In this document: positions 11,727 to 27,715 of the stretch, piece after piece
How positions within the stretch are numbered: the first letter of the stretch is position 1
How the letters are laid out: every line of letters begins with the position of its first letter
From: a virus
DNA: 64,000 bases
Reading direction: 5' to 3' (one strand)
Virus record (IMG/VR): IMGVR_UViG_3300032783_000063
Span: 37,306 to 101,305 of that record
The notes under the pieces: generated by a model
The model's input: the letters and a program-made list of their open reading frames with translations, nothing else
Told to the model about the DNA's origin: nothing
Database searches by the model: none
Program-made: the position numbers and the translations under genes

Positions 11727-12476
11727 CTACCCGACAGGCTCCGGGTCCACCGCGTAGTCGTAACTGACTACCTGGTCAGGGGGCAGCACGTGCTCACCGT
11801 AGATCAGCACACCAGCATCGTCGGACCATACGTTCGTCGTGGCCAGGATCGGGGTGCCGATCGGAATACGCAGCGCACCCGCCTCTCGCGCATCTGCCGC
11901 CCGGCCGCGGAGATGATCCCGGCCGTGCGTGACACGCCGCCCCGTCACCGACTCAACCACACGAACAGTGCCGTCCGCCAGCGGCTCCGGTGATGTGAGC
12001 TCAGCTGCGAGCGGGCTGGAGCCGATCGGCGGCACCCAGTCCACCGACAGCATCTGCGGCCGGGCCCTCTTGTAAGTGACCTCTTCACGTCGGTTGACCA
12101 CCGTGCCGATCGGGATGCCCAGCAGTTCAGCCACATAGTTGGGTGCGGTGACCGTCTCTGCGGCGTTGACGATGATCCGTTCGCCGTTGGTGGTGGAGCG
12201 GCGCGGCCCGCCGCCTGTAATACGGTCACGGGCAGACTTGGTGATGATCTCCTTGTCGGCGACAAAAGACCCTTGGGGACTGGTCCAGATGGCGCCTTCT
12301 ACCTGAAGCTGGCTGATGGCCCGGGCGGCCGTGGCTACTGAGATGCCCCAGTCGGTGGCGATCTGGCTGATGGGCGGGAGCTTCTGCCCGGGAACAAGGT
12401 CACCATCGAGGATCGCGGTGCGGTAGTGATCCGCCACCTGTACGTAAACAGGTAGTGGCCGGTCGGCGCGTGGCAT
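11727..12476 (-). CDS. GntR/HutC-family repressor (KorA/KorSA-like)
   Basis: wHTH PVYVQVADHYRTAILDGDLVPGQKLP...WGISVATAARA..L..EG + UTRA; RBS AGGAGG; divergent from the transfer operon. Confidence 0.9.
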   Translation of the reverse strand: MPRADRPLPVYVQVADHYRTAILDGDLVPGQKLPPISQIATDWGISVATAARAISQLQVEGAIWTSPQGSFVADKEIITKSARDRITGGGPRRSTTNGERIIVNAAETVTAPNYVAELLGIPIGTVVNRREEVTYKRARPQMLSVDWVPPIGSSPLAAELTSPEPLADGTVRVVESVTGRRVTHGRDHLRGRAADAREAGALRIPIGTPILATTNVWSDDAGVLIYGEHVLPPDQVVSYDYAVDPEPVG

Positions 12477-12585
12477 TAAGGTCCGCCTCCTGAGGTGGGG
12501 GTCCTTTGGCAGCGTACTCATAGATCTACTGCCCAACCGTATTCTAGTACACGAGTGCTTGTGCTGTGTACGGTGCAGGCGTATG

Positions 12586-12595
12586 CTGTATACAG
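12586..12595. promoter_or_regulatory. palindrome CTGTATACAG, candidate GntR/HutC operator
   Basis: GT-n-TA-n-AC type palindrome in the divergent intergenic region. Confidence 0.45.
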
Positions 12596-12630
12596 ACAGC
12601 AACGGAACGCAACCGAAGGGAGCACGCAGC

Positions 12631-12864
12631 ATGAGCGCCCCCACCATCACCAGCGCACACCCCCCGCTCACCGTGGAGCAGGCCGACATACTCACCGAGG
12701 CCATCGCCGACGCCATCACATTCCGGCAGCCCCACCACGACTGCCCGGCCTGCATGTGGGAGCCCATCCCGTGGGCCTGTGTCGAGCATTTCGCCGACGA
12801 GGCCCGCGCCGAGGCATACATCTCCCTCGCCGCCGAGCTCGGCCTGGAAGCACCGGAGGTCTAG
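12631..12864 (+). CDS. hypothetical protein
   Basis: RBS AAGGGAG; first gene of long plus-strand operon. Confidence 0.65.
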   Translation: MSAPTITSAHPPLTVEQADILTEAIADAITFRQPHHDCPACMWEPIPWACVEHFADEARAEAYISLAAELGLEAPEV

Positions 12865-13092
12865 ATGCCTGACGAACTAGCAGTCACGCCGATCGTTACC
12901 GGCAGCCCCGTCAAGTCGATCGCATATCTCGTCGGCTACGGCGAATACGACGACCAGGTAATCCTGTGTGTCTGCGTGGACGCGCGTGACGCCGCAATGC
13001 AGGCCGACGAGTGGAACCGCACCGGCCGCGAACGGATGCATGACAAAGCGTGGATCGAGACGGTGGACTTCATCCCCGCAGGCGGCTCCTGA
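12865..13092 (+). CDS. hypothetical protein
   Basis: Translationally coupled ORF. Confidence 0.6.
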   Translation: MPDELAVTPIVTGSPVKSIAYLVGYGEYDDQVILCVCVDARDAAMQADEWNRTGRERMHDKAWIETVDFIPAGGS

Positions 13093-13376
13093 TGTCTGAC
13101 TGCGACCTGAACACTGAAAGCCCTCACATCGCCATGTCGGCGCCCGCCCGGTATGGCAAGAGCCCCGGCAAGTTCCTGCGGCTGGTCCCCCCCGACGGCG
13201 ACTATTACGCGAACGTCCTGGACGAGGAACTCGTGCAGACCGTCACAGCCCTGTGCGCTGAATGCGCCCACTGTCACCAGCCGGTCCGCCGCGAGCACGG
13301 CGGCGTCTGGTGCCACGTGTTCGCGTTCGACATGTTCATGTGCCCCGGCGTGCCAGAACCGGAGGCAGCGTCATGA
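13092..13376 (+). CDS. hypothetical protein (Cys-rich C-terminus)
   Basis: TGATG overlap. Confidence 0.55.
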   Translation: MSDCDLNTESPHIAMSAPARYGKSPGKFLRLVPPDGDYYANVLDEELVQTVTALCAECAHCHQPVRREHGGVWCHVFAFDMFMCPGVPEPEAAS

Positions 13377-13645
13377 TCTGGGTGATGGGCGGGTCGATGG
13401 CCCTGTTCCTGGTTGTGATCGTCGGTTTCGGCGTGGCTGTGGTGGCCGAGCTTCTCGGCGGCGGCCGCCGGGCTGATAGGCCGCGGCTGCGGGACGCGGA
13501 TGTGGCCCTGGCCGTGGACGCAGCCCGGCAGGCCGCCTACGCCCAGGGCCAGGCAGACCAGGCCAGCCAGACGTTCGACGCCTACATCGCCGCCGGTCTT
13601 GACGACGTGGAGGCGTTCGCGAACGGCGAGCGGAGGCAGCCATGA
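13373..13645 (+). CDS. membrane protein
   Basis: N-terminal TM helix; ATGA overlap. Confidence 0.6.
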   Translation: MIWVMGGSMALFLVVIVGFGVAVVAELLGGGRRADRPRLRDADVALAVDAARQAAYAQGQADQASQTFDAYIAAGLDDVEAFANGERRQP

Positions 13646-13938
13646 CCGCCTGGGCTGTCCTCGGCGCCATGTTCGTATTCCTGTGCCTCGTCTTCGCCGC
13701 CGGCGAATGGGCGTTCGACATCGTCGGTGTGCGCCGCCGGTATTACGCGTGGCGGCTGGACCGGTGGGAGGCATCCCGGCAGGCCGCCTACGACCGGGCC
13801 GTCGCCGACCAGGAAGAAGAGGAACGCTACGTCCGCGCCGCCGCGGCCGCCGTGCAGGACGAAGCCTGGGACGACATGGTGGCCAAGGGCCTCGACCTCC
13901 TCGAGGCGTGCGCCAATAACGAGAGGACGGACTGGTGA
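13642..13938 (+). CDS. membrane protein
   Basis: N-terminal TM helix; ATGA overlap. Confidence 0.6.
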   Translation: MTAWAVLGAMFVFLCLVFAAGEWAFDIVGVRRRYYAWRLDRWEASRQAAYDRAVADQEEEERYVRAAAAAVQDEAWDDMVAKGLDLLEACANNERTDW

Positions 13939-14387
13939 TGCACACCGTATCGACGTACAGCCCGCAGCTTGTGCTGGATGTCACTGACATGGCCTGGGCG
14001 GATGACGGCGACTGTCAGTACGCCGACCCGGAACTGTGGTTCCCCGCGCCGGGCGAACGGGCCGAAGAAGCGAAATCCATCTGCGCGCAGTGCCCGGTGA
14101 AAGCGGAGTGCCTGGCGTATGCGATGCCCCGCAGCGAGCTGGAGGGCATCTGGGGCGGGACGTCGCAACGTCAGCGTGCCCGCATGCGGGTCAAGGCCCA
14201 GCTGGCGCCCAGGAAGCACGCTGAGGCGGCGGCGCTGGCCGCGGAAGGCATGAAACGGTGCACCCGCTGCCGCCACCCGAAGCCCTATGCGGAGTTTTCG
14301 CTGGATTCCCGTTCACGGGACGGGCGGCGGCCGGATTGCAAGGCGTGCCTGTCGGCGCGCGGGTGGCGGAAGGAGAAGGCGGCATGA
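13935..14387 (+). CDS. whiB: WhiB-family regulator with C-terminal Zn finger
   Basis: C...DPELWFP...AKSICAQCPVKAECLAYA...GIWGG; then KRCTRC...CKAC. Confidence 0.9.
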   Translation: MMHTVSTYSPQLVLDVTDMAWADDGDCQYADPELWFPAPGERAEEAKSICAQCPVKAECLAYAMPRSELEGIWGGTSQRQRARMRVKAQLAPRKHAEAAALAAEGMKRCTRCRHPKPYAEFSLDSRSRDGRRPDCKACLSARGWRKEKAA

Positions 14388-14962
14388 ACGCCCGCGAGAA
14401 ATACGCCCGCCACCACGACAGACCTGAAGGGAACACCATGAGCCAGCCATCTGACACGACACCCGGGGCAGCCCGCCTGAACGAGATCCGCGCCCGCGAG
14501 CAGGCCGCCACGCCCGGCCCGTGGGGCTGGCGCGGACACCTGAGCCAGTCCGTTGAACTGCGCACGATCGGCCAGGGCGGCAAGCGGATCATCACGACGA
14601 TGCGGCAGGACCCGTGCATCGGCGGGACCGAAGACATCGGCCTGTTCCTGCACGACGACCCATGCCAGACCTGCCGCAAGGCATTCGAGACCGGGGAACT
14701 GGTCGAGCCCTTTCAGTGTGAGAAGCCCGAGAATCTGGATACCGTCTGGGTCTGGGGACCGAACGATGCTTGCGAGCCGGTCAACAAGTACGCCAAGGCC
14801 GAGGTACTCGAATGGTCTGACCACGTGTACCGCGACGATGTGAAGGACACCACGCATCCGGACGCCGAGTTCATCGCCCACGCCCGCGAAGACATCAGGT
14901 TCCTCCTGGACATCATCGACGGCATGCAGGAGCAGGTCCGGGATCGTGACGGTGCGGCATGA
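14384..14962 (+). CDS. Ead/Ea22-like phage protein
   Basis: RLNEIRAREQAATPGPW...DAEFIAHAREDI. Confidence 0.7.
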   Translation: MNAREKYARHHDRPEGNTMSQPSDTTPGAARLNEIRAREQAATPGPWGWRGHLSQSVELRTIGQGGKRIITTMRQDPCIGGTEDIGLFLHDDPCQTCRKAFETGELVEPFQCEKPENLDTVWVWGPNDACEPVNKYAKAEVLEWSDHVYRDDVKDTTHPDAEFIAHAREDIRFLLDIIDGMQEQVRDRDGAA

Positions 14963-15180
14963 CTACGACCACTGTTTTGCAGCCGGGGCGGGCGCACCGG
15001 AACGTCAGGCGCGCTGTCCGGCTGTGGCGCAAGCACAAGGCTGCGGCGGCCGTGATGGCCGCTGCGGCGGCCGCTGAGGTTGTCCTGTGGGCGGCGTGGA
15101 CTGTGGTCGCCCTGGCCCTGGCCGTGGCTGTGGCGGGCGTGTCGCGGGCCGCCGCTTACATCAGGGGACGGCGGTCATGA
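14959..15180 (+). CDS. small membrane protein
   Basis: Long hydrophobic segment; coupled to VirD4-like gene. Confidence 0.6.
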   Translation: MTTTTVLQPGRAHRNVRRAVRLWRKHKAAAAVMAAAAAAEVVLWAAWTVVALALAVAVAGVSRAAAYIRGRRS

Positions 15181-16880
15181 ACATCATCACCACTTCCCAT
15201 ATCAAGGCCCAGGTTCGTGACAGTCATGCGGCGCGGCGGACAGCATGGGCGGGGGGTGTCATCCTGGCAGCGGGTGTCATACAGGCGGCACACCGTGTCA
15301 TGCACCTGCCAGGATGGCCGTATGCGCTGATGGCCGCCGCCATCCTGGCCTACCACTATGCGCGGGCCGGGTGGGAACTGGTGGAGTTCCGCCGGACCGG
15401 CGGCCGGGCCGCGCGACGTCGGCGGCGGAAGTATCAGGGCGCTGCCACATTGCGCGACATTCACAAGCACTTGTCACCGGCTGCGGTCACTAAGCGGGCG
15501 GCGGTGACCCGGCCGTCGCTGGACGGGAAGGTAACGCTGGCCGACACGGGTGTCTTCCTCGGCCGCACCCTCCGCGCCAGACGCCGGCTGTGCGGCACCC
15601 ACGAGGACTCGTATCTGATCGTCGGCCCGCCCAGGACGGGAAAGACGGGATGGCTGGCGGGTGTCGTACAGGACGCTCCCGGTGCGTGTGTCGCCACCTC
15701 GAGCCGGGTTGACGTCCTCGTTCACACTGCCCCTGTCCGTGCTGCGAAAGGCCCGGCGTGGGTGCTGAACCCCGGCGGGGACGGGTCCATCCCCACCACG
15801 CTCGCCTGGTCGCCGCTCGACGGCTGCTACACCGCCGCCGGGGCAGTGGAACGCGCCGGCTACCTGATGGCCGCCGCGCCCAAAGACTCGTCCGGGAAAG
15901 ACGCCTGGTGGGAAGGCAAAGGCCACGAGCTCCTCCGCCTCGCCCTGCACGCCGCCGCAGTCGACGGCGGCACCATCCGCGACGCAGCCCAGTGGGTCCG
16001 CGACCCAGCCGACCCGGGCTTCGCCGCCGCGCTAGCCCTCCCCGACGCGGCCCCCGGCTGGGCCGCCGAGCATGCGCGGCTCATCGAATCCGCGGGGGAG
16101 ATGCTGTCCGGCATCGTCGCCTCCGCCGCGGCGGCGCTGGCGTGGCTGGCCGACCCGGCCATGGCACAGGTCGCCGACCCGGACCCTGGCACCGAGTTCT
16201 CCGCCGAGGAGTTCATCCTGTCGCGCGGCACCCTCTACATGATCGGCGCCGACAAGCCCCACTCCAGTTACGCACCCTATTTCGCGGCACTGACAGCGGA
16301 GATTTTCGAGGCAGCGAAACGGGTCGCATCGAACATGCGGAACGGCAGGCTTGACCCGCCGCTGACACTGGCCCTGGACGAGGCGGCGATCATCTGCCCC
16401 GTCCCGCTGGACCGGTGGACGTCCGAGGCCGGCGGTCACGGTGTCACCGTCCTGGCAGGCGTGCAGGCCATGTCACAGCTGCGCGCCCGGTGGGGCGACG
16501 AAGGCGGCCGTACCATCTTCTCCAACTCCACGGTGAAGATGATTTTCGGCGGGCTGACAGACCACGCTGATCTGGAGGCACTGTCAGCGGTGTGCGGTGA
16601 CCGTGACACGTGGCACAAGGTCAAGAGCGACGGCGGGTCGACCAGGCAGCCCGGCAGCGAGCGGCTGTTCCCGCCGGAACGGATCCGGCTGCTGCCCGCC
16701 TGGCATGCCCTGATCCTGCACCGGTCCACGCGGCCGGTGGTAGCCCGTGTCACCCCCGTGTGGCAGCGGAAGGACTATCTGCCGCTGCCCGAGGCCACCT
16801 GCCCGCCGCCCGCTGACATGCCGGCGGTCACCGACGACATCCAGCTCGCACTGCCGCCCGGCACCCAGCCGGCGGCCTGA
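15177..16880 (+). CDS. VirD4/TraG/TraD-like type IV coupling ATPase
   Basis: Two N-terminal TMs, Walker A GPPRTGKT, WSPLDGC, Walker B LALDEAA, GVQAMSQLRARWG, SNSTVKMIFGG (TraG-D C-terminal domain). Confidence 0.88.
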   Translation: MNIITTSHIKAQVRDSHAARRTAWAGGVILAAGVIQAAHRVMHLPGWPYALMAAAILAYHYARAGWELVEFRRTGGRAARRRRRKYQGAATLRDIHKHLSPAAVTKRAAVTRPSLDGKVTLADTGVFLGRTLRARRRLCGTHEDSYLIVGPPRTGKTGWLAGVVQDAPGACVATSSRVDVLVHTAPVRAAKGPAWVLNPGGDGSIPTTLAWSPLDGCYTAAGAVERAGYLMAAAPKDSSGKDAWWEGKGHELLRLALHAAAVDGGTIRDAAQWVRDPADPGFAAALALPDAAPGWAAEHARLIESAGEMLSGIVASAAAALAWLADPAMAQVADPDPGTEFSAEEFILSRGTLYMIGADKPHSSYAPYFAALTAEIFEAAKRVASNMRNGRLDPPLTLALDEAAIICPVPLDRWTSEAGGHGVTVLAGVQAMSQLRARWGDEGGRTIFSNSTVKMIFGGLTDHADLEALSAVCGDRDTWHKVKSDGGSTRQPGSERLFPPERIRLLPAWHALILHRSTRPVVARVTPVWQRKDYLPLPEATCPPPADMPAVTDDIQLALPPGTQPAA

Positions 16881-16901
16881 CCGGAGAAAGGACACACCAC
16901 G

Positions 16902-17723
16902 ATGAGCGAAAGCACCTATTCGCCGCTCTCCCGCAGAGCAAAGCAGCTGCTCAGCCTGCTGAAACGCACCAAGGACAAAGGCGTCCAGCGGGCGATTCTG
17001 CAGGCCCTGGCCCGTGAGATCGAGAAAGGCAAGCGGGCGGTCGTCAGGCGCGCGAAGGAAGCCGCCGAGCGTGCGAAGGACCGGATCAAGTACGGCAAGG
17101 AGTTCGCCCGCAAGGAGGCCCGGAAAGCATCGACGCGGGCGAAGGAGCCGCTGATGCGGCAGCACGCCGCTGGCGGGCAGGCCAGGAAGCCGGGGCCGAA
17201 GATGACCCGCGACGGCTACCACAAAGCTGCCGGGCTCACCCCCGAGCAGTCACGGAAGGTAGCAGCCGGGCCGAAGCCGCTCCGCCGCAGCGTCCGGGAC
17301 CGGGCAGCGAAGGTGCAGGCGAAACTCCAGTCGAAAGCCCGGCCTGTGACGGTGCGCAACCCGGCACCGGCTAAGGCGAAGGTGGTGCACATCGGCGGCA
17401 AGCCGGCCGCTAAGCCAGCACGGACCGTCCGCCCGGCGCCCGCCCCGTCAGCGCCGGCCAGGACCACGCCAGCGCCAGCCCGCGCCCCCGCCGCCACCGC
17501 AGCCAGGACCCCCGTGCGGGCCCCCGCAGCACCCGCCAGGACACCCGTGCCGCTCCCGTCGCAGACCGTCGCACGCGACCACGCAGCCCGCCTCGCGCCC
17601 AGGCCCCGCAAGCCCGCAGCGCCCATCCGCGTCCGCGCACCCAGGGCCCGGGCGCCCAGGCCAGCCGTGCACCCCGTCAAGATCCGCGCACCACGGGTCC
17701 GCATCCCCATCCGCGGCCGCTAA
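16902..17723 (+). CDS. highly basic Ala/Pro/Arg-rich protein
   Basis: RBS GAAAGGA; helical N-terminus, low-complexity basic tail. Confidence 0.65.
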   Translation: MSESTYSPLSRRAKQLLSLLKRTKDKGVQRAILQALAREIEKGKRAVVRRAKEAAERAKDRIKYGKEFARKEARKASTRAKEPLMRQHAAGGQARKPGPKMTRDGYHKAAGLTPEQSRKVAAGPKPLRRSVRDRAAKVQAKLQSKARPVTVRNPAPAKAKVVHIGGKPAAKPARTVRPAPAPSAPARTTPAPARAPAATAARTPVRAPAAPARTPVPLPSQTVARDHAARLAPRPRKPAAPIRVRAPRARAPRPAVHPVKIRAPRVRIPIRGR

Positions 17724-17742
17724 CAGAAAGGAGAACACGCTC

Positions 17743-18021: not shown

Positions 18022-18036
18022 CAGGAGAAAAAGAAC

Positions 18037-18213
18037 ATGAAAACCTTCCGGACCATCGTAGGCATCGGGTTCTTCGGTCTGATGGCCGTCGTCGCCACAT
18101 GGGCGATAGTGACGAGCCCCGGTCCTGTCCACTGGGGCCGGATGCTCGTCTTCGGCGTGATCGCGAGCATCCCGCTTGTGATCAAGATGCGCCGCGCCGA
18201 CCGTAACCGCTAA
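18037..18213 (+). CDS. small two-TM membrane protein (Spd-like)
   Basis: Manual translation MKTFRTIVGIGFFGLMAVVATWAIV...MLVFGVIASIPLVIKMRR; RBS AGGAG. Confidence 0.65.
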   Translation: MKTFRTIVGIGFFGLMAVVATWAIVTSPGPVHWGRMLVFGVIASIPLVIKMRRADRNR

Positions 18214-18230
18214 CACAGAAAGACACACAA

Positions 18231-18899
18231 ATGTCCATTAACCTCCGCATCAGCCAGCGCAACCGTGGCACCGAACCCGGCAACCCGTTCAGATGTGCCA
18301 TCGCCAACGCCTGGCGGGCGCAGAAAGGCGGTGACCCGTACGTACCAGGAGACGGCCGCGTACACGTAAGCCACGGCCCGTTCTGGCGCGAAACCCACAA
18401 GATCGGCCCGGACGGCAACAAGGTCATCAAAACCCACGACACCAAAGGCCCGAAAGCAGTCCCGGACCAGGACATCACCCTCGACGGCCCCGCCAAGACA
18501 CCCGCGAAGACCAAGACACCGGCCAAGACGGCGGCGAAGGCATCTGCCCGCGCTGACCGGAAAGCCGCCAGGGCCGCCAGGAAAACAGACACCAAACCGG
18601 CCGCGAAGGCACCTGCTGCTGCCGCAGCACCACAGCAGCAGCGAGCGTGGCCGCCGAAACCAGCACGCACCGCCCCCCCGCAGCAGACACGCGCCACACT
18701 GCGCCGCCCGGCACCCCCGCAGCCAGCCAGACAGCCCGCCGCGACCGCCCAGGCACGCACCAGAGCGGCAGCCCCGGCCCAGGCCCGTGCCACCCAGCGG
18801 CAAGCCATCACCGCAGGCAAACCAGCACAGCAATGGCCGCCGCCATACCGGGAACCCGAGAAAGTCCCCGTCACCCGCAGCCGCAGCCGCGGACGGTAA
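18231..18899 (+). CDS. hypothetical protein with Lys/Ala/Pro-rich tail
   Basis: ORF directly upstream of traB-like gene. Confidence 0.6.
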   Translation: MSINLRISQRNRGTEPGNPFRCAIANAWRAQKGGDPYVPGDGRVHVSHGPFWRETHKIGPDGNKVIKTHDTKGPKAVPDQDITLDGPAKTPAKTKTPAKTAAKASARADRKAARAARKTDTKPAAKAPAAAAAPQQQRAWPPKPARTAPPQQTRATLRRPAPPQPARQPAATAQARTRAAAPAQARATQRQAITAGKPAQQWPPPYREPEKVPVTRSRSRGR

Positions 18900-18911
18900 A
18901 AGGAGCCCTGC

Positions 18912-20843: not shown

Positions 20844-21727
20844 CACGCCAACTCACCGAGATCGTGCTCGCCAGCCGTGACGACATCCCCGCCGTCCCCC
20901 TCGGGGCGTGGCGCACCAGCGAGATCTGGTGCCCAGTCGGCGCCCCGTTCGGCGCCTATCAGGCGTCGTCACGCGGCCGTATCCGCAGCGTCGACCGCAC
21001 CGCAGCCAACGGCCGCGCCTACAAGGGCGTAGTGCTCAGCGCGCGGCTCTCCCACCGCGGCCCGAGCGCGGGCACCAGGCACTCCTACGAGCAAGTCAAC
21101 GTCACCGCCGGCGACGGCACGAAGCACACCAGGCCCGTCCACTGGCTTGTCACGCTCGCCTTCGAGGGCCCCAGGCCCGCAGGCCAGCCCGAGACCCGCC
21201 ACTACAACGACCAGCCGCTCGACAACAGGTGGGCCCCGGGCGCCACGAAAGAGGAACGGCAGGCCAACGGCGGGAACCTGGGCTACGGGTCGCGGGAGGA
21301 CCAGGAACGCGACCAGGCCGAGAACAACCCGCCCGAGCCGAGGCCGCCGCGACCGGTCGTCCTCTGCGAGCCCCACGGCCGGCCCGTAGTCAACGGCAGC
21401 AAGGTCCGCTGCCAGGCGTGCATCGAGCAGCTGGGCATCGCCGGCGCCCGCCTCATCGCCTCGGGCCTCAGCCCGGCCGAGGCAGCTGAGCAGCTGGGCT
21501 ACAGCTCGCCGGACGGCCTGGTGCGCCACGCCAAAAACCACGGCGGCCTGATCGAGACCATCACCTACTCGCTCGCCGGCGGGACACCGCCCGTGATACT
21601 CGCCGGGGACCCTCCCGCGAGTGTTATACGCAACCACCCTGTGACCAGCGGAAACGTGCCGGATGGCGGCCGCCGCCGAGTGTCCCGGCTGAGGCGCCTG
21701 TTCCGCCAGGTCGGTGACTCACAGTGA
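20840..21727 (+). CDS. NUMOD4-HNH homing endonuclease-like protein
   Basis: EIWCPV...YQASSRGRIRSVDR...VHWLVTLAFEGPRP...TRHYNDQPLDNR...NLGYG. Confidence 0.8.
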   Translation: MTRQLTEIVLASRDDIPAVPLGAWRTSEIWCPVGAPFGAYQASSRGRIRSVDRTAANGRAYKGVVLSARLSHRGPSAGTRHSYEQVNVTAGDGTKHTRPVHWLVTLAFEGPRPAGQPETRHYNDQPLDNRWAPGATKEERQANGGNLGYGSREDQERDQAENNPPEPRPPRPVVLCEPHGRPVVNGSKVRCQACIEQLGIAGARLIASGLSPAEAAEQLGYSSPDGLVRHAKNHGGLIETITYSLAGGTPPVILAGDPPASVIRNHPVTSGNVPDGGRRRVSRLRRLFRQVGDSQ

Positions 21728-22033
21728 ACGCCGGCCTGACGTCACGCACAGTGAGCGGCCCGCTAATCCGATCGAACTGGAAACTCGCCCAAGATCGTTC
21801 ACCGCTAACCATAGTACGCAGCCACATAAGGGGCATAAGCGGGCGTTCTACGCTGGGGCGAGTTGCTCGCGGGGGGAGGCCCGCCGCGAAGCGGCGTAAA
21901 GGCGCGTGGCCTCCCCCCAAACCCGTCCCAGATGGGACAAACTGGGACACCCTTCTGGGACAGCCCAGGGAGACGAGTTGTTTGCTTGATATACACAGCA
22001 AACCGGCTGCCGAGCCGAGTCACACACAGTGAG
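21714..22033. promoter_or_regulatory. three BldD-box-like 15-mers
   Basis: GTGACTCACAGTGAA (21714), GTCACGCACAGTGAG (21741), GTCACACACAGTGAG (22019); each one mismatch to nTnACnC(A/T)GnGTnAn. Confidence 0.55.
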
Positions 22034-22157
22034 CAACAAAAACAAAGGTCAGGTTCAAGGCAGGGGGACATCCTGTACACGTACATGGTTTCACGTGCCA
22101 CGTACAGTGGGTATACTTACGCGCAGAGAGATTCACTCCCTAGCCAACAGAGAGGCC

Positions 22158-22577: not shown

Positions 22578-22614
22578 CCACCAACATCAACTGTCAGGCG
22601 GGGGAGGTGCCCGC

Positions 22615-22797
22615 ATGAGCGGCCAGCGGTTCGTGGTCGCCTGCATCACCGTGTCATTGCTGGTGATCGTCACCCAGGTTCTGCTGTGCGTCCTGGGCGA
22701 CGCCCGCCTGGCGCGGGCGTGGGCCGCCGGGTTCGCTGGCGTCGCAGTCGCATCCGGCCTCATGTATCTCCGCAGCCAGAGAGGCGGCCAACGATGA
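22615..22797 (+). CDS. small two-TM membrane protein
   Basis: Hydrophobicity; RBS GGAGG. Confidence 0.6.
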   Translation: MSGQRFVVACITVSLLVIVTQVLLCVLGDARLARAWAAGFAGVAVASGLMYLRSQRGGQR

Positions 22798-22852
22798 CCG
22801 CCATTGTGGCCGTGGACCGGCGGCAGCACGACAGTAGGGGGGGCATCGTCCC

Positions 22853-23029
22853 GTGAGCACACTCATCGTCGTCGCGGTCATCGTGTTCGTCTTGCTGCAC
22901 GTCCTGGGCGCCGGACAGCATCACCGGCGCCGGTCACGCGGACTCCAGCCCAGGTTCTACTGGTCCTCGAAGTGGGGGCCGTACGGGTCGATCAAGATCG
23001 GGGGCTTTCGCATCGGTCACAAACTGTAG
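22853..23029 (+). CDS. small membrane protein
   Basis: Manual translation VSTLIVVAVIVFVLLHVLGAGQHHRRR... Confidence 0.55.
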   Translation: MSTLIVVAVIVFVLLHVLGAGQHHRRRSRGLQPRFYWSSKWGPYGSIKIGGFRIGHKL

Positions 23030-23092
23030 GGGGGGGGATTATCCCCTCTATTAACTACTAGATAGTCGTTTCAAGTCAAGGGAGCACGAATC

Positions 23093-23536
23093 ATGTCATC
23101 TTGCCCGGGTTTGCATTGCCCAGGGTGCGGCGAGGTGGGGGCTGGCGGCCTGGTGGTCGCCGGTGTTGCCGCAGCGCTGGCTTATGAACTGGGTGCGACG
23201 ATCGCCACGATCGCCGCACTCGTCCTGACCATCGCCGGTGTCACGACTCTCGTCGTCGTCGTGCTGATGGCCATCTTCCTGCGGAAGGTCCTGAAGGACA
23301 CTGCGGGCCAGGAGCAGATCTTGCCGTTCGGTGAGGCGATGCGCCGGTCTGCGGCGGTGCGGGGGCCGTCGAATGCGGCGATCGGGCGGCGGCTGCGGGC
23401 GCTGGAGAACCGGCCTGCGCTGCATGTGCATCTGGGCGGCGAGCAGGACACCGCGCCGGTGTGGACGGCGCGCCAGCAGGCGACGGAGCGGAAGCAGCTG
23501 CCGGGCCGGTCGTGGCCGCGAGAGGACCAGCCGTGA
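23093..23536 (+). CDS. membrane protein (Spd-like)
   Basis: LHCPGC then two TMs, LHVH motif. Confidence 0.6.
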   Translation: MSSCPGLHCPGCGEVGAGGLVVAGVAAALAYELGATIATIAALVLTIAGVTTLVVVVLMAIFLRKVLKDTAGQEQILPFGEAMRRSAAVRGPSNAAIGRRLRALENRPALHVHLGGEQDTAPVWTARQQATERKQLPGRSWPREDQP

Positions 23537-23916
23537 TCGTCCTGGCTGTGGCCGGGGTGGCCGTGCTGATCCTGTGGGCGGCGTTCGGGGATGTTGTTCT
23601 CTGGTCGCTGCTGGCCGCCGGGGTCGTGGTGGCCGCTGCCGGGGCGGTGTTCGCGGTGTGGTGGTGTCGGCGGACTGTGCCGCAGATCCGGCAGCCGTGG
23701 ACTGGTGACATGACCCTGGACGTGCTCAAGGCGCGCGAGCTGGCTGAGGAGCATCCGGTGAAGGTGATCGAGGGCGTGTTCGAGGTGTCGGAGGAACGGC
23801 TCCCGGCACGCAGGAAGAGAGCATGGACCGCTACCCCCAGTAATCAACCGAAGGGAACACACGCAGTGACCAAGCTCAGCGAATGCGACGACCGGCGGGA
23901 CCGGTCTAGGCGATGA
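23533..23916 (+). CDS. membrane protein
   Basis: Two N-terminal TMs; GTGA overlap. Confidence 0.55.
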   Translation: MIVLAVAGVAVLILWAAFGDVVLWSLLAAGVVVAAAGAVFAVWWCRRTVPQIRQPWTGDMTLDVLKARELAEEHPVKVIEGVFEVSEERLPARRKRAWTATPSNQPKGTHAVTKLSECDDRRDRSRR

Positions 23917-24281: not shown

Positions 24282-24682
24282 GCGGCGAAGAGAAGGGATG
24301 CGTCATGAACTCCACGAAAGGAATCGATCAGATGAATGCAATATCCGGGCCAGCAGTGCGGGCCGCCCCGCAGCCCGATTTCCCGTCCACCGCCTACGGT
24401 GTGCGCTTGACCTGGCTCGGTGAAGACGGTGGCATGGCCGCCGAAGGCCACGTCCCGCTGCTGCGGTTCGTCGCTGCCTGCAACCGTGTAGCGCGCACGG
24501 AGTGTGGTCTGCGGAACCTGGCAGACGAGCGAGGGTTCGCGCTGGACGATGTCCTGGACGTAGTCCGGCACGTCTGGGCCGTGACCGTCCCGCCAGAGGG
24601 CTGGTGCGAGTGGGCGGTCAGCTGGCAGGACGTCACGAAGGAAACTCCCGGCGCCATTCCCCTCACCGTCTACTGGCCGTAA
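24278..24682 (+). CDS. hypothetical protein
   Basis: Coupled ORF. Confidence 0.55.
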   Translation: MSGEEKGCVMNSTKGIDQMNAISGPAVRAAPQPDFPSTAYGVRLTWLGEDGGMAAEGHVPLLRFVAACNRVARTECGLRNLADERGFALDDVLDVVRHVWAVTVPPEGWCEWAVSWQDVTKETPGAIPLTVYWP

Positions 24683-24953
24683 GCGGACAGGGAGCACGCA
24701 ATGAGTGTGTATGACAAGGCTCTGGCGGCTCGGTGTGAGTTGTGCTGGGCGTCGCCGGGGACGGTGTGTCAGCGGCATCCGGCGGGGGTGCATGTGGGAC
24801 GCTTCCCGGACACTACGGTCACAGGCCGGGATGCGTACCGGATCGTACTGGAGGCGGCAGCGTGATTCTCGATCTGGCCATGTTCGCGGTGGGGGTTGTC
24901 ATGGGCTGGGGTGCGGCCTGGTGGATGGCGCGCCGCGATAGGAAGGACAAGTC

Positions 24954-25604
24954 ATGACGCGCACGGGCAACACCACCAGGTACACGGCGGCGGCTGCGCT
25001 GGCTGGCGTGTCACTCATCGCCGCCGTCATCTCCTACCTGCACGCCCTCGCCGTGGTCCGCGCGGTCGGCGCCACGCCGCCGGTGGTGTACCTGATCCCG
25101 TTCCTCGCGGACCTGGTGATCCTGGGGGCGTCGGCGTCGCTGCTGGACGCAGCGTCGTCCGGGAAGGCGAAGCCGCGGCTGGCGGTGGTGTCGCTGGCGA
25201 CGGGGGTTGGGGTGACTCTGGCGATGAACGTGGCGGCGGGGCTGGGTCATGGTGTGGCGGGCGGTCTGGTGGCGGGGTGGCCGGCGGTGGCGTTCGTGTT
25301 GTCGCTGGAGTCCCTGGCGGTGATCGTCCGCTCAAACAGCCGCGAGGCGGCGCGGGCGGCGCGGCAGAGTGCCGTGGCGCCTGTCATACACGACGACAGG
25401 CCCGTCGCTCCCGCCACGGCCGAGCCTGCGCCGGTGGCGTCGGCGGCCGGGGACAACCATGAGGAGATCCGGCGGCTTCTCACCGCCGTCCCGCCGCTGT
25501 CGGTTTCCCAGATCGCTGACAGGGCGAATGTTTCCAAGTCCACGGTCCACCGGGTGAAGCGGCAGTCCCGCAACAACCGGCACGGCCTGTCCGCTGTCCG
25601 GTAG
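24954..25604 (+). CDS. DUF2637 membrane protein with C-terminal HTH (SpdB-like spread protein)
   Basis: AAVISYLHA...P.LADLVI...TLAMNVA...VAGWPAVAFVLSLE, four TMs, HTH SVSQIADRANVSKSTVHRVK. Confidence 0.8.
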   Translation: MTRTGNTTRYTAAAALAGVSLIAAVISYLHALAVVRAVGATPPVVYLIPFLADLVILGASASLLDAASSGKAKPRLAVVSLATGVGVTLAMNVAAGLGHGVAGGLVAGWPAVAFVLSLESLAVIVRSNSREAARAARQSAVAPVIHDDRPVAPATAEPAPVASAAGDNHEEIRRLLTAVPPLSVSQIADRANVSKSTVHRVKRQSRNNRHGLSAVR

Positions 25605-25615
25605 GAGGGAACCCC

Positions 25616-26341
25616 ATGGACGGTCACATGCTGAAGCGGACCCTGGCCGTGCACCAGCGCATAGCCGACGCGTTCAACGATGACCGGTTCCCGGTACGCG
25701 GCCCGAATACGCGGATGCTCGTTGTCACGGGCCTGTGGGTGGTCGGGATCGAGAGGCCCCCGCCTGGTGAGCGGTGGGATCGTGTCCGGGATCTGCTGCA
25801 GCTGAGTCCGTACGGGCTGCTGAACATGTTCAGGGAGGACGCACCTCGGTGGGCGCCGACTGACGAGCATGGCGTTGACCGACGCCGGGTGTGTGAGGCG
25901 CCGATGGTCCGCCGGTCCGGCCCGTGCGGGCAGTCTGAGTCGACTGCGTTCCGGGTGACTGATCCTGCTGATGGGACGTGGCGTATTGCCGGGTTCTGTA
26001 ACCGGCACCGGGAGTATGCGGCGGCGGTGCAGCAGGCTGAGCGTGTCCGCCGCCAGTCCGGGACGTTGCCGGTGCCTGTGCCGAACACGGGAGGGCTGCT
26101 GCCGTGTTATCTCGGCGGTAAACGGGAAGCCTGGGCTGAGAATTATGCGCGTGCCCGGCCGGGGTGGCAGCCTCCTGCGGAGGGTTTGCGGGCGGATGAC
26201 TGGCCAGTCATGGCAAAGGTCGTAGCCAAGGCGGCGGCTCCGCAGCTGTCGCTGCTCGAGGGTGACGGTGAGACCGAGTTCCTGTTCGCTGATGGTACCG
26301 GCCCTCCTTCGCTGCGTCTTTTGCCCGGAGGTGCGGCGTAA
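25616..26341 (+). CDS. hypothetical protein (Cys/His motif)
   Basis: RBS GGAGG; CEAPM.R..GPCG...FCNRH. Confidence 0.65.
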   Translation: MDGHMLKRTLAVHQRIADAFNDDRFPVRGPNTRMLVVTGLWVVGIERPPPGERWDRVRDLLQLSPYGLLNMFREDAPRWAPTDEHGVDRRRVCEAPMVRRSGPCGQSESTAFRVTDPADGTWRIAGFCNRHREYAAAVQQAERVRRQSGTLPVPVPNTGGLLPCYLGGKREAWAENYARARPGWQPPAEGLRADDWPVMAKVVAKAAAPQLSLLEGDGETEFLFADGTGPPSLRLLPGGAA

Positions 26342-26375
26342 GACTGGCAGCCGACATGAGTAGAAAGGCATCACC

Positions 26376-26795
26376 ATGTGCAACCCCGTGACAACCCTCA
26401 ACCCGGACTGCCTCCTCGCCAAAGGCACGGCGAACGGCTACGAGTGGGAAGTCGTCAGCAACCCGCTTGGCTACCGCTGCGGCTATGTGCGCATCCCGGC
26501 CGGGCACCCGTGGCACGGCAAGGGCATCGACGACGTCAACCCGGACCCGTTCGTACATGGCGGCCTGAACTTCGCCCGGGCGGACACTGACTGCGGCAAG
26601 GGCGGCGGGGATGATGCGTGGTGGCTCGGATTCGATTGTGCCCATGCGGGGGACGCCCCGGACCCGGCGCTGCCAGGCCATGATCCTCACATGCTGGAAC
26701 TGCTGCAGCGGGCGGGCTGGACTGTCCGGTCAACGGACTATGTAATCGGCGAGTGCGTGTCACTTGCCCGGCAGGCCGCCGCCGCAGTGCGGTAG
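26376..26795 (+). CDS. conserved phage hypothetical protein
   Basis: GYRCGYVRIP.GHP...VHGGLNF...WWLGFDCAHAGD. Confidence 0.75.
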   Translation: MCNPVTTLNPDCLLAKGTANGYEWEVVSNPLGYRCGYVRIPAGHPWHGKGIDDVNPDPFVHGGLNFARADTDCGKGGGDDAWWLGFDCAHAGDAPDPALPGHDPHMLELLQRAGWTVRSTDYVIGECVSLARQAAAAVR

Positions 26796-26805
26796 AACAC
26801 TGTGC

Positions 26806-27252
26806 GTGAAAGCACTCACCGTCCGTAACCCCTGGGCTCACGCCATCGCCCACTGGCGCGAAACCATCATCAACATGACCTGGCCAACCGGCTACCGCGG
26901 CGAGCTCGCCATCCACGCCCACCCCGCCGCCGACCCCGCAGCGGATGATGACCCTCGCATCGCCGAGGTCGCAAGATCCCATCCGGGCATTCCCATGGCA
27001 GCCGGCGCGGTGGTCGCGGTCGGCCACCTCGCCGGCTGCCATCACGCTGAACGGTGCGACCATGCGTGGACGCCCTGCTGCCAGCCCGGCTGTCACCACC
27101 TGTGCGACCCGTGGGCCACCTACGGCATGTGGCACTGGCAGCTCACCGGAGTGCGGACGCTGGCGGTGCCAGTACCCTGCAAAGCCGGGCTCGGCCTGTG
27201 GGAACTCCCCGAGACGGTCGCCGACCAGACGTACCCGACCGAGGTGCTGTAA
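26806..27252 (+). CDS. ASCH/PUA-domain protein
   Basis: KALTVRNPWAHAI...TW.TGYRGELAIHA...W.L..VR.L..PVPCK..LGLW. Confidence 0.8.
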   Translation: MKALTVRNPWAHAIAHWRETIINMTWPTGYRGELAIHAHPAADPAADDDPRIAEVARSHPGIPMAAGAVVAVGHLAGCHHAERCDHAWTPCCQPGCHHLCDPWATYGMWHWQLTGVRTLAVPVPCKAGLGLWELPETVADQTYPTEVL

Positions 27253-27290
27253 TACACCGTCCTGTCATACCTGTCGGTTACCTTATGGGT

Positions 27291-27656
27291 ATGTCTCGCC
27301 CTGTCGTACTCGCCGTCGCTGCCATCGTCTTACTCGTCGGCTGGGCCACCCACGGCCCCGTCGGCCTCGTCCTCGCCATCCTGCTCGAGGCCACGGTCTA
27401 CTTCATCTCGCTGCGGCTCCACCCGCGGATCCGGCACACCGGCATCCTCGGCCTCGGCTGGTTCACCTGCAGGGGCACCGGCGAGAAACACTCCCACCTG
27501 TTCCGCTGGATCTATCACCGGGATAAGCGGTGCGGCGGGTCGGGGCGGATCATCCGGTGGGGGGCCCGCCGGTGGGGCACTGACAATATCCGGCGGGCGG
27601 AGGTTCTGTCGGCGACACAGCGGGCCAACGCGAAACGTCTCCGCACCTGGCGCTAG
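27291..27656 (+). CDS. membrane protein with DnaJ-like CxGxG Zn finger
   Basis: Two TMs, CRGTG...CGGSGR. Confidence 0.6.
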   Translation: MSRPVVLAVAAIVLLVGWATHGPVGLVLAILLEATVYFISLRLHPRIRHTGILGLGWFTCRGTGEKHSHLFRWIYHRDKRCGGSGRIIRWGARRWGTDNIRRAEVLSATQRANAKRLRTWR

Positions 27657-27715
27657 GCAGCAGCCCGCCCATCCCAACCAGAGGGACAGGCGGGCTGACT
27701 GTTGTACAGCCATTC

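What the first reader, a model, noticed from the sequence alone, without database searches (positions are those of the whole stretch)
11727..27656. Streptomyces-plasmid-type conjugation/spread module inside a tailed-phage genome
Seen: a GntR repressor divergent from a long operon containing a VirD4-like coupling ATPase (15177), an FtsK/TraB-like ATPase with TMs and a C-terminal winged helix (18912), a DUF2637 four-TM + HTH protein (24954) and many small membrane proteins. These are interleaved with ordinary phage genes (WhiB, Ead/Ea22, NUMOD4-HNH, ASCH), with no visible element boundary. I see no relaxase, VirB4 or rolling-circle Rep. Established: Kor(GntR)-TraB-Spd is the hypha-to-hypha dsDNA transfer system of actinomycete plasmids and AICEs. 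Inference: a phage able to spread both as virions and by conjugation or intramycelial transfer, with an unusual TraB + VirD4 pairing.
Basis: partly seen in the sequence, partly recalled or inferred. Interest (0 to 1): 0.85.

Follow-up and report, generated by a model that had tools for sequence, protein, structure and literature searches.

The report
Conjugation-like DNA-pump module in actinophage
A complete 101-kb tailed phage of soil actinobacteria carries two membrane DNA-pump ATPases of the kinds plasmids use for conjugation, plus a nicking-type nuclease and a conserved DNA site, as an old built-in part of its genome; it may therefore pass its DNA between host cells without virus particles, which has one experimental precedent (pZL12) and is untested here.

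Summary
The window is part of a complete 101-kb tailed-phage genome assembled with matching ends. It has a terminase, an intein-bearing portal, an HK97-type capsid, a tape measure and an endolysin.

At 11.7-28.9 kb a HutC-type GntR gene faces a long plus-strand operon. The operon encodes:
- an intact VirD4-type coupling ATPase;
- a divergent membrane ATPase with an FtsK/TcpA fold;
- a DUF2637 four-TM protein with an HTH;
- about eight small membrane proteins and two very basic proteins.

No relaxase, VirB4, ParA or full-length integrase was found.

The block is native. Its composition matches the rest of the genome, contigs from four runs bridge both edges, and related viral contigs with homologous tail and DnaB genes carry the same VirD4/FtsK-like pair.

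Two points are new. The "ordinary" NUMOD4-HNH gene is a co-conserved I-HmuI-like partner of the FtsK-like gene. Just downstream lies a conserved hairpin followed by TGGGACA direct repeats, which is a clt-like candidate site.

My best reading (about 0.45) is a TraB-like, capsid-independent DNA transfer or spread system. The precedent is plasmid-phage pZL12, which is not homologous. This scan has flagged similar modules in other phage genomes.

I class it as a new variant of a known kind. Its function is untested.

The parts
11103..11699 (-). UTRA-only protein (198 aa, no HTH), just downstream of the GntR gene on the same strand. It could be a ligand-sensing or anti-repressor paralogue.
   Evidence: Pfam UTRA 3.7e-19. 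Weak similarity to the UTRA part of the GntR gene pZL12.80.
11727..12821 (-). HutC-type GntR regulator (HTH plus UTRA), divergent from the operon. Candidate Kor-like repressor.
   Evidence: GntR 8e-11 and UTRA 5e-10. Homologous divergent GntR genes lie upstream of the coupling-protein gene in L033, L039 and Actinomadura L138.
13262..13938 (+). Two tandem paralogous single-TM proteins (13262-13645 and 13642-13938).
   Evidence: Hydropathy. Internal direct repeats D4/D8 with 251-bp spacing.
13935..14387 (+). WhiB-like regulator.
   Evidence: Pfam Whib 5.5e-21.
14959..15180 (+). Small single-TM ORF that overlaps the start of the coupling-protein gene.
   Evidence: Hydropathy 2.46.
15087..16880 (+). 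VirD4/TraG-type type IV coupling protein. The start is either GTG 15087 or ATG 15177.
   Evidence: TraG-D_C 4.2e-21, TrwB_AAD_bind 7.7e-10, T4SS-DNA_transf 3.5e-9. K186 and D431/E432 are invariant in alignment A2. About 37% identical to coupling proteins of Streptomyces and Pseudonocardia plasmids.
16902..17723 (+). Very basic, Ala/Pro/Lys/Arg-rich low-complexity protein (273 aa). Possible DNA-coating protein.
   Evidence: Translation. No family hit.
18037..18213 (+). Small two-TM protein.
   Evidence: Hydropathy.
18231..18899 (+). Second very basic low-complexity protein (222 aa).
   Evidence: Translation. No family hit.
18912..20843 (+). Membrane-anchored FtsK/TcpA-fold ATPase with a small C-terminal alpha/beta domain at about residues 570-625. 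Candidate dsDNA translocase (TraB analogue).
   Evidence: Walker A G278/G280/K281 and E367/E368 are invariant in alignment A1.
20840..21727 (+). I-HmuI-like NUMOD4-HNH endonuclease with a four-Cys zinc ribbon and a C-terminal HTH. Co-conserved partner of the FtsK-like gene.
   Evidence: NUMOD4 8.5e-6 and HNH PHROGs. Family profile hits I-HmuI (1u3e) at 1.8e-11; Foldseek top hit is 1u3e. H121 is invariant and the four Cys nearly invariant, in at least 90% of rows. Adjacent to the FtsK-like gene in 48 of 90 unique loci.
21871..21962 (+). Conserved cis element: a GC-rich hairpin at about 21871-21918, a C-rich tract, then three direct TGGGACA repeats at 21933, 21943 and 21956. Candidate clt-like loading site or operator.
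   Evidence: Fold z-score -3.5. The double-repeat pattern matches twice against 0.00 expected. Enrichment downstream of the HNH gene in 27 loci is 30-fold. The double repeat occurs once in each of 22 loci, always there and on the same strand.
22615..23916 (+). Run of four small membrane proteins (22615-22797, 22853-23029, 23093-23536, 23461-23916). Candidate Spd-like proteins.
   Evidence: Hydropathy. The 22853-23029 protein has homologues beside the module in L026, L033, L061 and L076.
24954..25604 (+). DUF2637 four-TM membrane protein with a C-terminal HTH.
   Evidence: Homologues lie within about 1.7 kb of the FtsK-like gene in 19 unique loci.
26764..27252 (+). ASCH-like protein.
   Evidence: phrog_3193 at 2.9e-25. 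36% identity to an annotated ASCH protein on the coupling-protein plasmid NZ_CP149448.
27842..28453 (+). Short (203 aa) tyrosine recombinase made of the catalytic domain only. It is the only recombinase in the genome and could be a multimer resolvase.
   Evidence: Phage_integrase 1.3e-41. Only PF00589 hit in the genome, and no serine recombinase.
28883..28916 (+). Terminator-like hairpin with 14 base pairs. Probable end of the plus-strand operon.

Best explanation
The block is a native, old module of a lineage of large tailed phages of mycelial actinobacteria. It is built around a membrane-anchored FtsK/TcpA-type ATPase. I propose that it is a TraB-like, capsid-independent DNA translocation system.

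Proposed mechanism (every functional step below is inferred, none is shown):
1. The divergent HutC-type GntR protein represses the operon, as Kor proteins do.
2. When derepressed, the FtsK-like ATPase forms a ring at the membrane or a hyphal cross-wall.
3. It loads on the phage DNA at the hairpin and TGGGACA-repeat site just downstream of its gene, through its C-terminal domain or the HTH of a partner protein.
4. It pumps the phage genome into the neighbouring compartment or hypha. The phage probably persists as a non-integrated replicon.
5. The DUF2637 four-TM/HTH protein and the small membrane proteins act as the membrane partners, in the role of Spd proteins.
6. The I-HmuI-like HNH enzyme may nick or cut at the site.
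7. The VirD4-type coupling protein, present in only a subset of the lineage, adds a second motor or docking function.

Shown: the gene identities, folds and conserved catalytic residues, the conserved linkage, the conserved cis element, and that the block belongs to the phage genome.
For: - Virion genes and the module sit on one complete genome with matching ends.
- The ATPase has an FtsK/TcpA fold with invariant Walker motifs. TcpA, its best structural match, is a conjugative DNA translocase.
- The coupling protein is intact.
- The layout of a GntR gene divergent from an operon with small membrane proteins and an FtsK-like ATPase is the same as in plasmid-phage pZL12. [quoted passage not shown]
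- Plasmid cousins of the ATPase are annotated Tra or pRL2-11 on Streptomyces plasmids. The Atlas places its nearest cluster mostly in viruses and the next ones on actinobacterial replicons.
- DUF2637 proteins sit beside coupling proteins on Streptomyces plasmids and in an Actinomadura integrated element that has a divergent GntR gene, and beside the FtsK-like gene in phage contigs.
- The direct-repeat site immediately downstream of the pump gene pair is conserved across loci with only 28-50% protein identity. That is the position and form of a clt.
- The module is native: composition, bridging contigs, relatives that share tail and DnaB genes, and FtsK-linked coupling proteins spread over a clade apart from plasmid ones (quick tree).
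- There is no full-length integrase or serine recombinase. There is a ParB-like protein and an iteron array.
Against: - No transfer has been observed, and the host is unknown.
- The ATPase fails the Pfam FtsK_SpoIIIE cut-off. It shows no detectable kinship to the pZL12 FtsK-like protein beyond the P-loop.
- FtsK-like genes are common in Streptomyces phages, lytic ones included, with unknown function (PMC11536984, PMC13587820, PMC10117723). Such a gene alone does not imply conjugation.
- Neither lysogeny nor a plasmid state is shown. No ParA was found and no Rep protein was identified.
- A coupling protein without a relaxase has no known substrate.
- The TGGGACA repeats could equally be an operator or promoter element for the downstream genes.
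- An HNH nuclease next to a DNA pump also fits a defence or exclusion role.
Confidence: 0.45

Rival explanations
1. Developmental segregation device. The FtsK-like pump and its small membrane partners move or clear phage or prophage DNA across sporulation or vegetative septa, in the manner of the host SffA-SmeA and FtsK (named from my own knowledge). This would keep a non-integrated prophage that lacks ParA in spores and hyphal compartments. It is vertical inheritance, not horizontal transfer.
For: - No ParA and no integrase, but a ParB-like protein is present.
- WhiB lies in the same operon.
- Phage ftsK, parB and whiB genes are discussed as tools for manipulating host development (PMC10117723).
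- A pump with a sequence-specific loading site fits directional DNA clearance.
Against: - Nothing explains the coupling protein or the HNH nuclease.
- The nearest non-phage relatives sit on plasmids and integrated elements in transfer-type contexts, not in chromosomal segregation loci.
Confidence: 0.17
2. Exclusion or defence module. Membrane ATPases with a nuclease intercept incoming foreign DNA, from superinfecting phages or conjugating plasmids, at the envelope.
For: - An HNH nuclease is co-conserved with a membrane-anchored HerA/FtsK-superfamily ATPase. Pairings of an ATPase with a nuclease are common in defence systems.
- The module is repressor-controlled and lies in an accessory region.
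Against: - There is no meaningful PADLOC match, only P-loop or HTH-level hits to MADS components at E about 1e-3.
- The conserved cis site lies on the phage's own DNA next to the genes, which points to action on self DNA.
Confidence: 0.13
3. Lytic-cycle DNA handling. The ATPases and the nuclease serve phage replication, concatemer processing, or DNA entry or exit during ordinary infection, for example spreading replicating genomes along a multigenomic hypha before lysis.
For: - FtsK-like genes occur in lytic Streptomyces phages and have been suggested to act in replication (PMC11536984).
- The FtsK-like gene occurs in 18 IMG/VR contigs, two of them complete genomes that lack the coupling protein.
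- HNH nucleases assist terminases in some phages (from my own knowledge).
Against: - The module is far from the terminase and head genes, and it is under a GntR/UTRA ligand-type repressor.
- The membrane anchoring and the many small membrane proteins fit poorly with a cytoplasmic replication role.
Confidence: 0.15
4. Passenger element or assembly artefact. An AICE, ICE or plasmid fragment was inserted into, or misjoined with, a phage genome and has no role for the phage.
For: - A recombinase gene lies at the right edge and a TnpB gene just to the left.
- The closest named coupling proteins are on plasmids and integrated elements.
Against: - No flanking direct repeats.
- Tetranucleotide similarity of 0.904 lies within the genome's own range of 0.878-0.952.
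- Single contigs at even depth span both edges in four runs.
- Relatives with homologous tail genes or DnaB carry the same pair.
- The coupling proteins linked to the FtsK-like gene form their own clade.
Confidence: 0.04

Closest known systems
Streptomyces plasmid-phage pZL12 / phiZL12 (GQ919031; Zhong et al. 2010, cited in PMC3583192, PMC4487206 and PMC7157519) and its relative pSLE1
   Same: A roughly 90-kb virion-encoding replicon with ParB. A GntR gene (pZL12.80) is divergent from an operon of small and membrane proteins that ends in large genes, including an FtsK/SpoIIIE-like one (pZL12.71c-73c). Its conjugal transfer needs a major tra gene plus two adjacent genes (PMC3583192).
   Different: It is not a relative. 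Only three weakly shared genes were found, and the two FtsK-like proteins align only at the P-loop. pZL12 has ParA and shows no match to this phage's VirD4-type coupling protein, its I-HmuI-like HNH partner or its FtsK-like protein at the tblastn cut-offs used. I could not read the primary paper because PMC2897331 is not held.
Kor-TraB-clt-Spd dsDNA conjugation system of Streptomyces plasmids and AICEs (pSVH1, pIJ101, pSAM2, pWTY27)
   Same: A single membrane FtsK-like pump with a C-terminal DNA-binding domain; short direct repeats next to its gene; a GntR-type repressor; small membrane proteins (PMC3583192, PMC3429521).
   Different: The pump belongs to a separate, mostly viral family below the Pfam FtsK_SpoIIIE cut-off. 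The repeats are TGGGACA words downstream of an intervening HNH gene. Homology to Spd proteins is untested. A VirD4-type coupling protein is present as well, and the element encodes virions.
TcpA, the FtsK-like coupling protein of Clostridium perfringens plasmid pCW3 (PDB 6o1w-6o1z)
   Different: Identity is 15-17%. TcpA works inside a multi-protein Tcp apparatus with a relaxase, and none of those partners was found here.
VirD4-type coupling protein with DUF2637 protein (and MobF relaxase) on Streptomyces and Pseudonocardia plasmids, and the Actinomadura hibisca integrated element
   Same: The coupling protein is 34-50% identical. A DUF2637 protein is adjacent. A divergent GntR/UTRA gene is present in Actinomadura, and an ASCH gene is shared with plasmid NZ_CP149448.
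   Different: Those elements carry a MobF relaxase or PrimPol/DUF3631 replication genes, have no virion genes, and lack the FtsK-like/HNH pair. The phage-linked coupling proteins form a separate group.
FtsK/SpoIIIE-like genes of isolated Streptomyces phages (such as Geonosis, Jaresh, AndoPrime and Dagobah)
   Same: Actinophages often carry an FtsK-like ATPase of unknown role (PMC11536984, PMC13587820, PMC10117723). Dagobah's 309-aa protein matches the ATPase core at 30% identity.
   Different: Among 50,697 phage records, only Dagobah matches this family, and no record has a convincing VirD4 homologue. The membrane anchor, the HNH partner, the DUF2637 partner and the cis site are not described for those phages.

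Membership tests
TraB-type (AICE / Streptomyces plasmid) dsDNA conjugation system | Membrane-associated FtsK/SpoIIIE-family ATPase with intact Walker A and B motifs | tested here: inconclusive
   The fold is FtsK/TcpA, the Walker motifs are invariant and a TM segment is present. However, PF01580 reaches only 16.3 bits against a cut-off of 24. No canonical TraB sequence was available for comparison.
TraB-type (AICE / Streptomyces plasmid) dsDNA conjugation system | C-terminal winged-helix domain that binds 8-bp repeats of a clt site at or next to the tra gene | tested here: inconclusive
   A small, well-modelled C-terminal alpha/beta domain exists but is not named by any search. Conserved TGGGACA direct repeats lie about 1.1 kb downstream of the pump gene, after the HNH gene. 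Binding was not tested.
TraB-type (AICE / Streptomyces plasmid) dsDNA conjugation system | Spd (spread) membrane proteins encoded with tra | not testable with these tools
   About eight small TM proteins and a four-TM DUF2637/HTH protein are present. No Spd profile or reference sequence was on hand.
TraB-type (AICE / Streptomyces plasmid) dsDNA conjugation system | GntR-family Kor repressor divergent from the tra operon | tested here: met
   GntR plus UTRA at 11727-12821(-), divergent from the operon. The same arrangement is seen in relatives.
TraB-type (AICE / Streptomyces plasmid) dsDNA conjugation system | Contact-dependent transfer of double-stranded DNA | not testable with these tools
   This needs a cultured host and mating assays.
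T4SS-type conjugative element (ICE or conjugative plasmid) | VirD4-type coupling protein | tested here: met
   TraG-D_C, TrwB_AAD_bind and T4SS-DNA_transf are all over cut-off.
T4SS-type conjugative element (ICE or conjugative plasmid) | Relaxase | tested here: not met
   No TrwC (PF08751) or Relaxase (PF03432) match at E <= 1 in the six-frame genome. Other MOB families were not searched.
T4SS-type conjugative element (ICE or conjugative plasmid) | VirB4-type ATPase and mating-pore proteins | tested here: not met
   AAA_10 gives only a 15-bit P-loop match, and that match is to the FtsK-like gene itself.
Phage-plasmid (P1 or pZL12 type) | Complete set of virion, packaging and lysis genes | tested here: met
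   Large terminase, portal, HK97-type capsid, tape measure and endolysin. IMG/VR classes the record as having direct terminal repeats, and CheckV rates it 100% complete.
Phage-plasmid (P1 or pZL12 type) | Plasmid replication and partition functions, with no integration module | tested here: inconclusive
   Present: a ParB-like protein, an 18-bp iteron array at 38983-39158 and DnaB. Absent: ParA. No Rep protein was identified. The only recombinase is a 203-aa tyrosine recombinase.
Known anti-phage defence systems (PADLOC) | Significant match to a defence-system protein model | tested here: not met
   Only hits at E about 1e-3 to 5e-5, over short P-loop or HTH stretches, to the MADS components mad8 and mad1.

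The most novel reading that the evidence does not exclude
A relaxase-free DNA-export machine native to phages. The I-HmuI-type nicking HNH enzyme would act at the hairpin and TGGGACA-repeat site as the functional counterpart of relaxase and oriT. The FtsK-like motor, joined in this sub-lineage by a VirD4-type motor, would then drive the phage genome through a DUF2637/small-protein channel into neighbouring hyphae. If so, a whole lineage of uncultured actinophages would spread both as virions and by a new kind of conjugation.
Probability: 0.15. Interest if true: 0.85.

Novelty: new variant of a known kind. Interest (0 to 1): 0.62.

Why it matters
Phages and conjugative elements are usually treated as separate routes of gene flow. 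Apart from pZL12, no tailed phage has been shown to move by cell contact.

Here a complete phage genome, and a lineage of uncultured relatives, keep two conjugation-type DNA motors under a ligand-type repressor. They also keep a nuclease partner and a conserved DNA site. Together these give concrete parts to test: a site to delete, domains to test for binding, and ATPases to mutate.

If the module moves DNA between hyphae, that would change how phage spread, lysogeny and gene transfer are modelled in mycelial antibiotic-producing bacteria. It would also define a minimal DNA-export system without a relaxase. If it instead serves segregation or exclusion, it would still explain a widespread, unannotated gene set of actinophages.

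Tried and rejected
The contexts of the closest protein relatives (P0003, P0004) and of the five contigs that carry the identical ATPase could not be read.
- Complex prediction on the FtsK-like cytoplasmic part with the HNH-like protein gave no answer.
- The search for att-like flanking repeats found only low-identity chance pairs.
- An exact k-mer cluster scan found no repeat array inside the block other than the TGGGACA words. The only strong array in the window is at 38983-39158.
- Kinship with pZL12 is rejected: three weakly shared genes, and hhalign probability 0.6% between the two FtsK-like proteins.
- Megablast of the block against phage records gave no match.
- tblastn of the DUF2637 protein against plasmids and phages gave no match.
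- Single-protein scans of viral and genome contigs found nothing; the alignment-based scans did.
- A PF05065 capsid search in the five VirD4-bearing viral contigs gave no match. Their phage nature rests on IMG/VR labels and on shared tail and DnaB genes.
- The C-terminal 84 residues of the ATPase matched no PDB sequence.
- PADLOC gave nothing meaningful.
- SCP2 (NC_003904) is not in the plasmid collection and the pZL12 paper PMC2897331 is not held.
- Literature searches on pRL2 and DUF2637 gave nothing useful.
- The short-sided 'joints' in the read-laying output have sides of 20-22 letters and come from other organisms. I do not read them as deletions.

Full report
**What the window is.** The 64-kb window is bases 37306-101305 of a single 101,305-bp record. 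The two ends of the record repeat 127 bases. IMG/VR classes it as a virus with direct terminal repeats, and CheckV rates it 100% complete. G+C is about 67% throughout.

The genome encodes a large terminase, a portal interrupted by an intein, an HK97-type major capsid protein, fibre-like proteins and glycosyltransferases. Within the window it also encodes a 1151-aa tape measure with NlpC/P60 and lysozyme-like domains and an amidase endolysin.

**Checking the observation.** I picked genes by third-position G+C and scanned them against Pfam, PHROGs and NCBIfam.
- 11727-12821(-) is a GntR HTH plus UTRA protein of the HutC type. It is followed on the same strand by an UTRA-only protein at 11103-11699.
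- Plus-strand genes run from 12865 to a 14-bp-stem terminator-like hairpin at 28883-28916.
- 15087/15177-16880 is a VirD4-type coupling protein. Three Pfam families score over cut-off, and the Walker A lysine and Walker B Asp-Glu are invariant among 23 relatives.
- 18912-20843 (643 aa) has no Pfam hit at 0.01, and FtsK_SpoIIIE reaches only 16.3 bits. A 30-sequence family profile nonetheless hits TcpA of pCW3 and FtsK in the PDB.
- The protein has a strong hydrophobic segment at residues 81-99. It also has a confidently modelled small alpha/beta domain at about residues 570-625 that no search names.
- 24954-25604 has four hydrophobic segments and an HTH. Its own DUF2637 score is below cut-off, but all 15 family members tested match DUF2637, best 4.9e-17.
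- WhiB (13935-14387) and a NUMOD4/HNH protein (20840-21727) are confirmed.
- About eight small ORFs have predicted TM segments. Two proteins (16902-17723 and 18231-18899) are extremely basic and low in complexity.
- ASCH rests on 36% identity to an annotated plasmid protein. Ead/Ea22 is not confirmed.
- Six-frame searches of the whole genome find no TrwC or MOBP relaxase, no VirB4-like AAA_10, no ParA and no serine recombinase. They find a single tyrosine recombinase of only 203 aa, at 27842-28453.

**Inserted element, chimera or native?**
- No exact direct repeats flank the block.
- The block's tetranucleotide usage correlates with the rest of the genome at 0.904. That lies inside the range for all 15-kb windows, 0.878-0.952.
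- Logan contigs of four wetland metagenome runs cover 9500-29499. In one run a single 31-kb contig covers it with no differences, and in another a 20-kb contig does. Depth is even across both edges of the block. These samples may include the source and probably belong to one campaign, so this is an independent assembly rather than independent biology.
- IMG/VR contigs from other samples carry the same order of genes: VirD4-like, then FtsK-like, then HNH-like (L033, L034, L035, L037), as does a MAG contig (L027).
- When read in full, one of these contigs shares this phage's tail genes and tape measure. Another shares its DnaB at 63% identity.
- The block is therefore a native part of a phage lineage, not a recent insertion or a misassembly.

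**How widespread the parts are.**
- The FtsK-like protein has more than 130 relatives in public metagenomes, 18 loci in IMG/VR and 101 in JGI metagenomes. The ESM Atlas places its nearest cluster mostly in viruses, and the next clusters (named pRL2-11) on actinobacterial replicons.
- Among 50,697 deposited phage genomes, only Streptomyces phage Dagobah matches it, weakly. None has a convincing VirD4 homologue.
- On plasmids, its 30%-identical cousins are annotated DUF87, pRL2-11, Tra or FtsK, almost all in Streptomyces.
- Across 90 unique loci, the HNH-like gene is directly adjacent and on the same strand in 47 (36 directly downstream, 11 directly upstream). A 48th locus has one 3 kb away on the opposite strand. 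Among loci with at least 1 kb on both sides, the count is 24 of 49.
- In the same 90 loci, a DUF2637/HTH homologue is nearby in 19 and a VirD4 homologue lies upstream in 8. Among loci with at least 5 kb of upstream sequence, the VirD4 count is 5 of 27.
- Several pairs of FtsK-like and VirD4-like proteins come from contigs of identical length, and so probably from the same contig.
- In a quick maximum-likelihood tree the FtsK-linked and viral coupling proteins form one group. Those of plasmids and chromosomal elements form another. The split has SH-aLRT 80, the root is at the midpoint, and the rows were chosen by similarity to the query. On this evidence the pairing is old within the lineage.

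First, the HNH protein is not a stray homing endonuclease.
- Its family profile hits I-HmuI (PDB 1u3e) at 1.8e-11, and 1u3e is also the top fold match. I-HmuI is known as a strand-specific nicking enzyme; that statement is from my own knowledge.
- The catalytic His121 and three NUMOD4-region residues are invariant in 29 sequences. Four Cys that form a likely zinc ribbon are nearly invariant, and a C-terminal HTH follows.

Second, there is a conserved cis element downstream of the HNH gene.
- The 300-bp gap after the gene holds a stable hairpin at about 21871-21918 (fold z-score -3.5). A C-rich tract follows, then three direct TGGGACA repeats at 21933, 21943 and 21956.
- The word occurs only nine times in the 101-kb genome. 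The double-repeat pattern is expected 0.00 times in shuffles of the window.
- In 27 related loci the word is 30-fold enriched in the 500 bp after the HNH gene. It usually appears as two or three copies of TGGGACA or TAGGACA spaced 9-10 bp apart, behind a GC hairpin.
- Among all 141 loci fetched, the double repeat occurs in 22. In each it occurs once, on the gene strand and at that place.

**Mechanism.** I think the most likely reading is a TraB-like DNA translocation system.

In Streptomyces plasmids and AICEs a single membrane FtsK-like protein binds short repeats next to its gene and pumps double-stranded DNA into the neighbouring hypha. Spd membrane proteins help, and a GntR-type Kor repressor controls the system (PMC3583192, PMC3429521).

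The present module has a counterpart for each of these parts, from different protein families. It adds a nicking-type nuclease and, in this sub-lineage, a VirD4-type motor.

The plasmid-phage pZL12 shows the same layout of a GntR gene divergent from an operon that ends in an FtsK-like gene. It has a described transfer locus (PMC3583192). It is not related to this phage.

The genome has no full-length integrase, a ParB-like protein, an 18-bp iteron array at 38983-39158 and a short recombinase that could resolve multimers. These features fit a non-integrated carrier state but do not prove one.

Every functional step of this mechanism is inferred.

**Rival readings.**
- The pump may serve vertical segregation of the phage DNA across septa, as SffA-SmeA does for the host chromosome.
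- The module may be an exclusion or defence device. PADLOC gives no real match, and the cis site on the phage's own DNA argues against this.
- It may handle DNA during ordinary lytic growth. FtsK-like genes also occur in lytic Streptomyces phages (PMC11536984).
- A coupling protein without a relaxase has no known substrate. On the nearest plasmids it sits with a MobF relaxase and a DUF2637 protein. In Actinomadura hibisca it sits with a divergent GntR gene, a DUF2637 protein and PrimPol/DUF3631 replication genes.

**Host.** The closest FtsK-like genes in genome collections come from Streptosporangiaceae MAGs. The closest named coupling proteins come from Actinomadura. The runs that hold the phage are wetland metagenomes. 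A Streptomyces host is therefore not indicated, but a mycelial actinomycete is likely.

**Novelty and verdict.** A virion-encoding replicon with a TraB-like transfer locus is a known but very rare kind (pZL12 and pSLE1). This scan has flagged comparable modules in several other phage genomes.

What is new here:
- a VirD4-type coupling protein kept in a phage lineage beside the FtsK-like pump;
- recognition of the I-HmuI-like nuclease as a conserved partner;
- the conserved hairpin and TGGGACA site.

I rate it a new variant of a known kind, with interest 0.62. Confidence in the transfer or spread mechanism is 0.45.

The complex prediction gave no answer.

Noticed in passing
window 38983-39158: An array of five or six copies of an 18-bp word (CCCCCGCAGAATCTGCAC, with a palindromic GCAGAATCTGC core). 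It lies in a 750-bp gap upstream of the DnaB helicase gene. It is the only strong repeat array in the window and could be a replication origin or a ParB site.
   Followed up: partly
window 9793-9824 (inside the TnpB gene at 9276-10832): Logan contigs of three of the four runs break at this same place inside the solo TnpB gene, while one run reads straight through. The TnpB element may be multi-copy or polymorphic in the population.
   Followed up: no
window 11103-11699 (-): An UTRA-only protein with no HTH sits directly behind the full GntR/UTRA regulator on the same strand. It could be an effector-binding decoy or an anti-repressor.
   Followed up: no
window 21716-21753 and 22018-22033: Three copies of a GTSAC-N-CACAGTGAR word flank the hairpin and TGGGACA element in the same intergenic region. 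GTGAC/GTCAC-rich words also follow the repeats in related loci, so the region may hold more than one binding site.
   Followed up: partly
window 16902-17723 and 18231-18899: Two very basic low-complexity proteins rich in Ala, Pro, Lys and Arg lie between the two ATPase genes. They resemble histone-like tails and could coat DNA. Only one weak homologue of each was seen in relatives.
   Followed up: no
L002 9233-11872 (-) = genome 28233-30872: The portal gene is interrupted by an intein with a LAGLIDADG endonuclease domain.
   Followed up: no
L138 (Actinomadura hibisca NBRC 15177, contig NZ_BCRO01000012.1): A chromosomal element has a divergent GntR/UTRA gene, a VirD4-type coupling protein (50% identical), a 540-aa DUF2637 protein, DpdA, PrimPol and DUF3631. 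This is an AICE-like replication set with a coupling protein where TraB would be expected.
   Followed up: partly
window 22746: An A>G variant in two of the four wetland runs, carried on short low-depth contigs beside the main contig. It indicates minor strain variation of the phage in those samples.
   Followed up: no
window 13262-13938: Two tandem paralogous single-TM proteins share a C-terminal motif; their repeat units are 251 bp apart.
   Followed up: no
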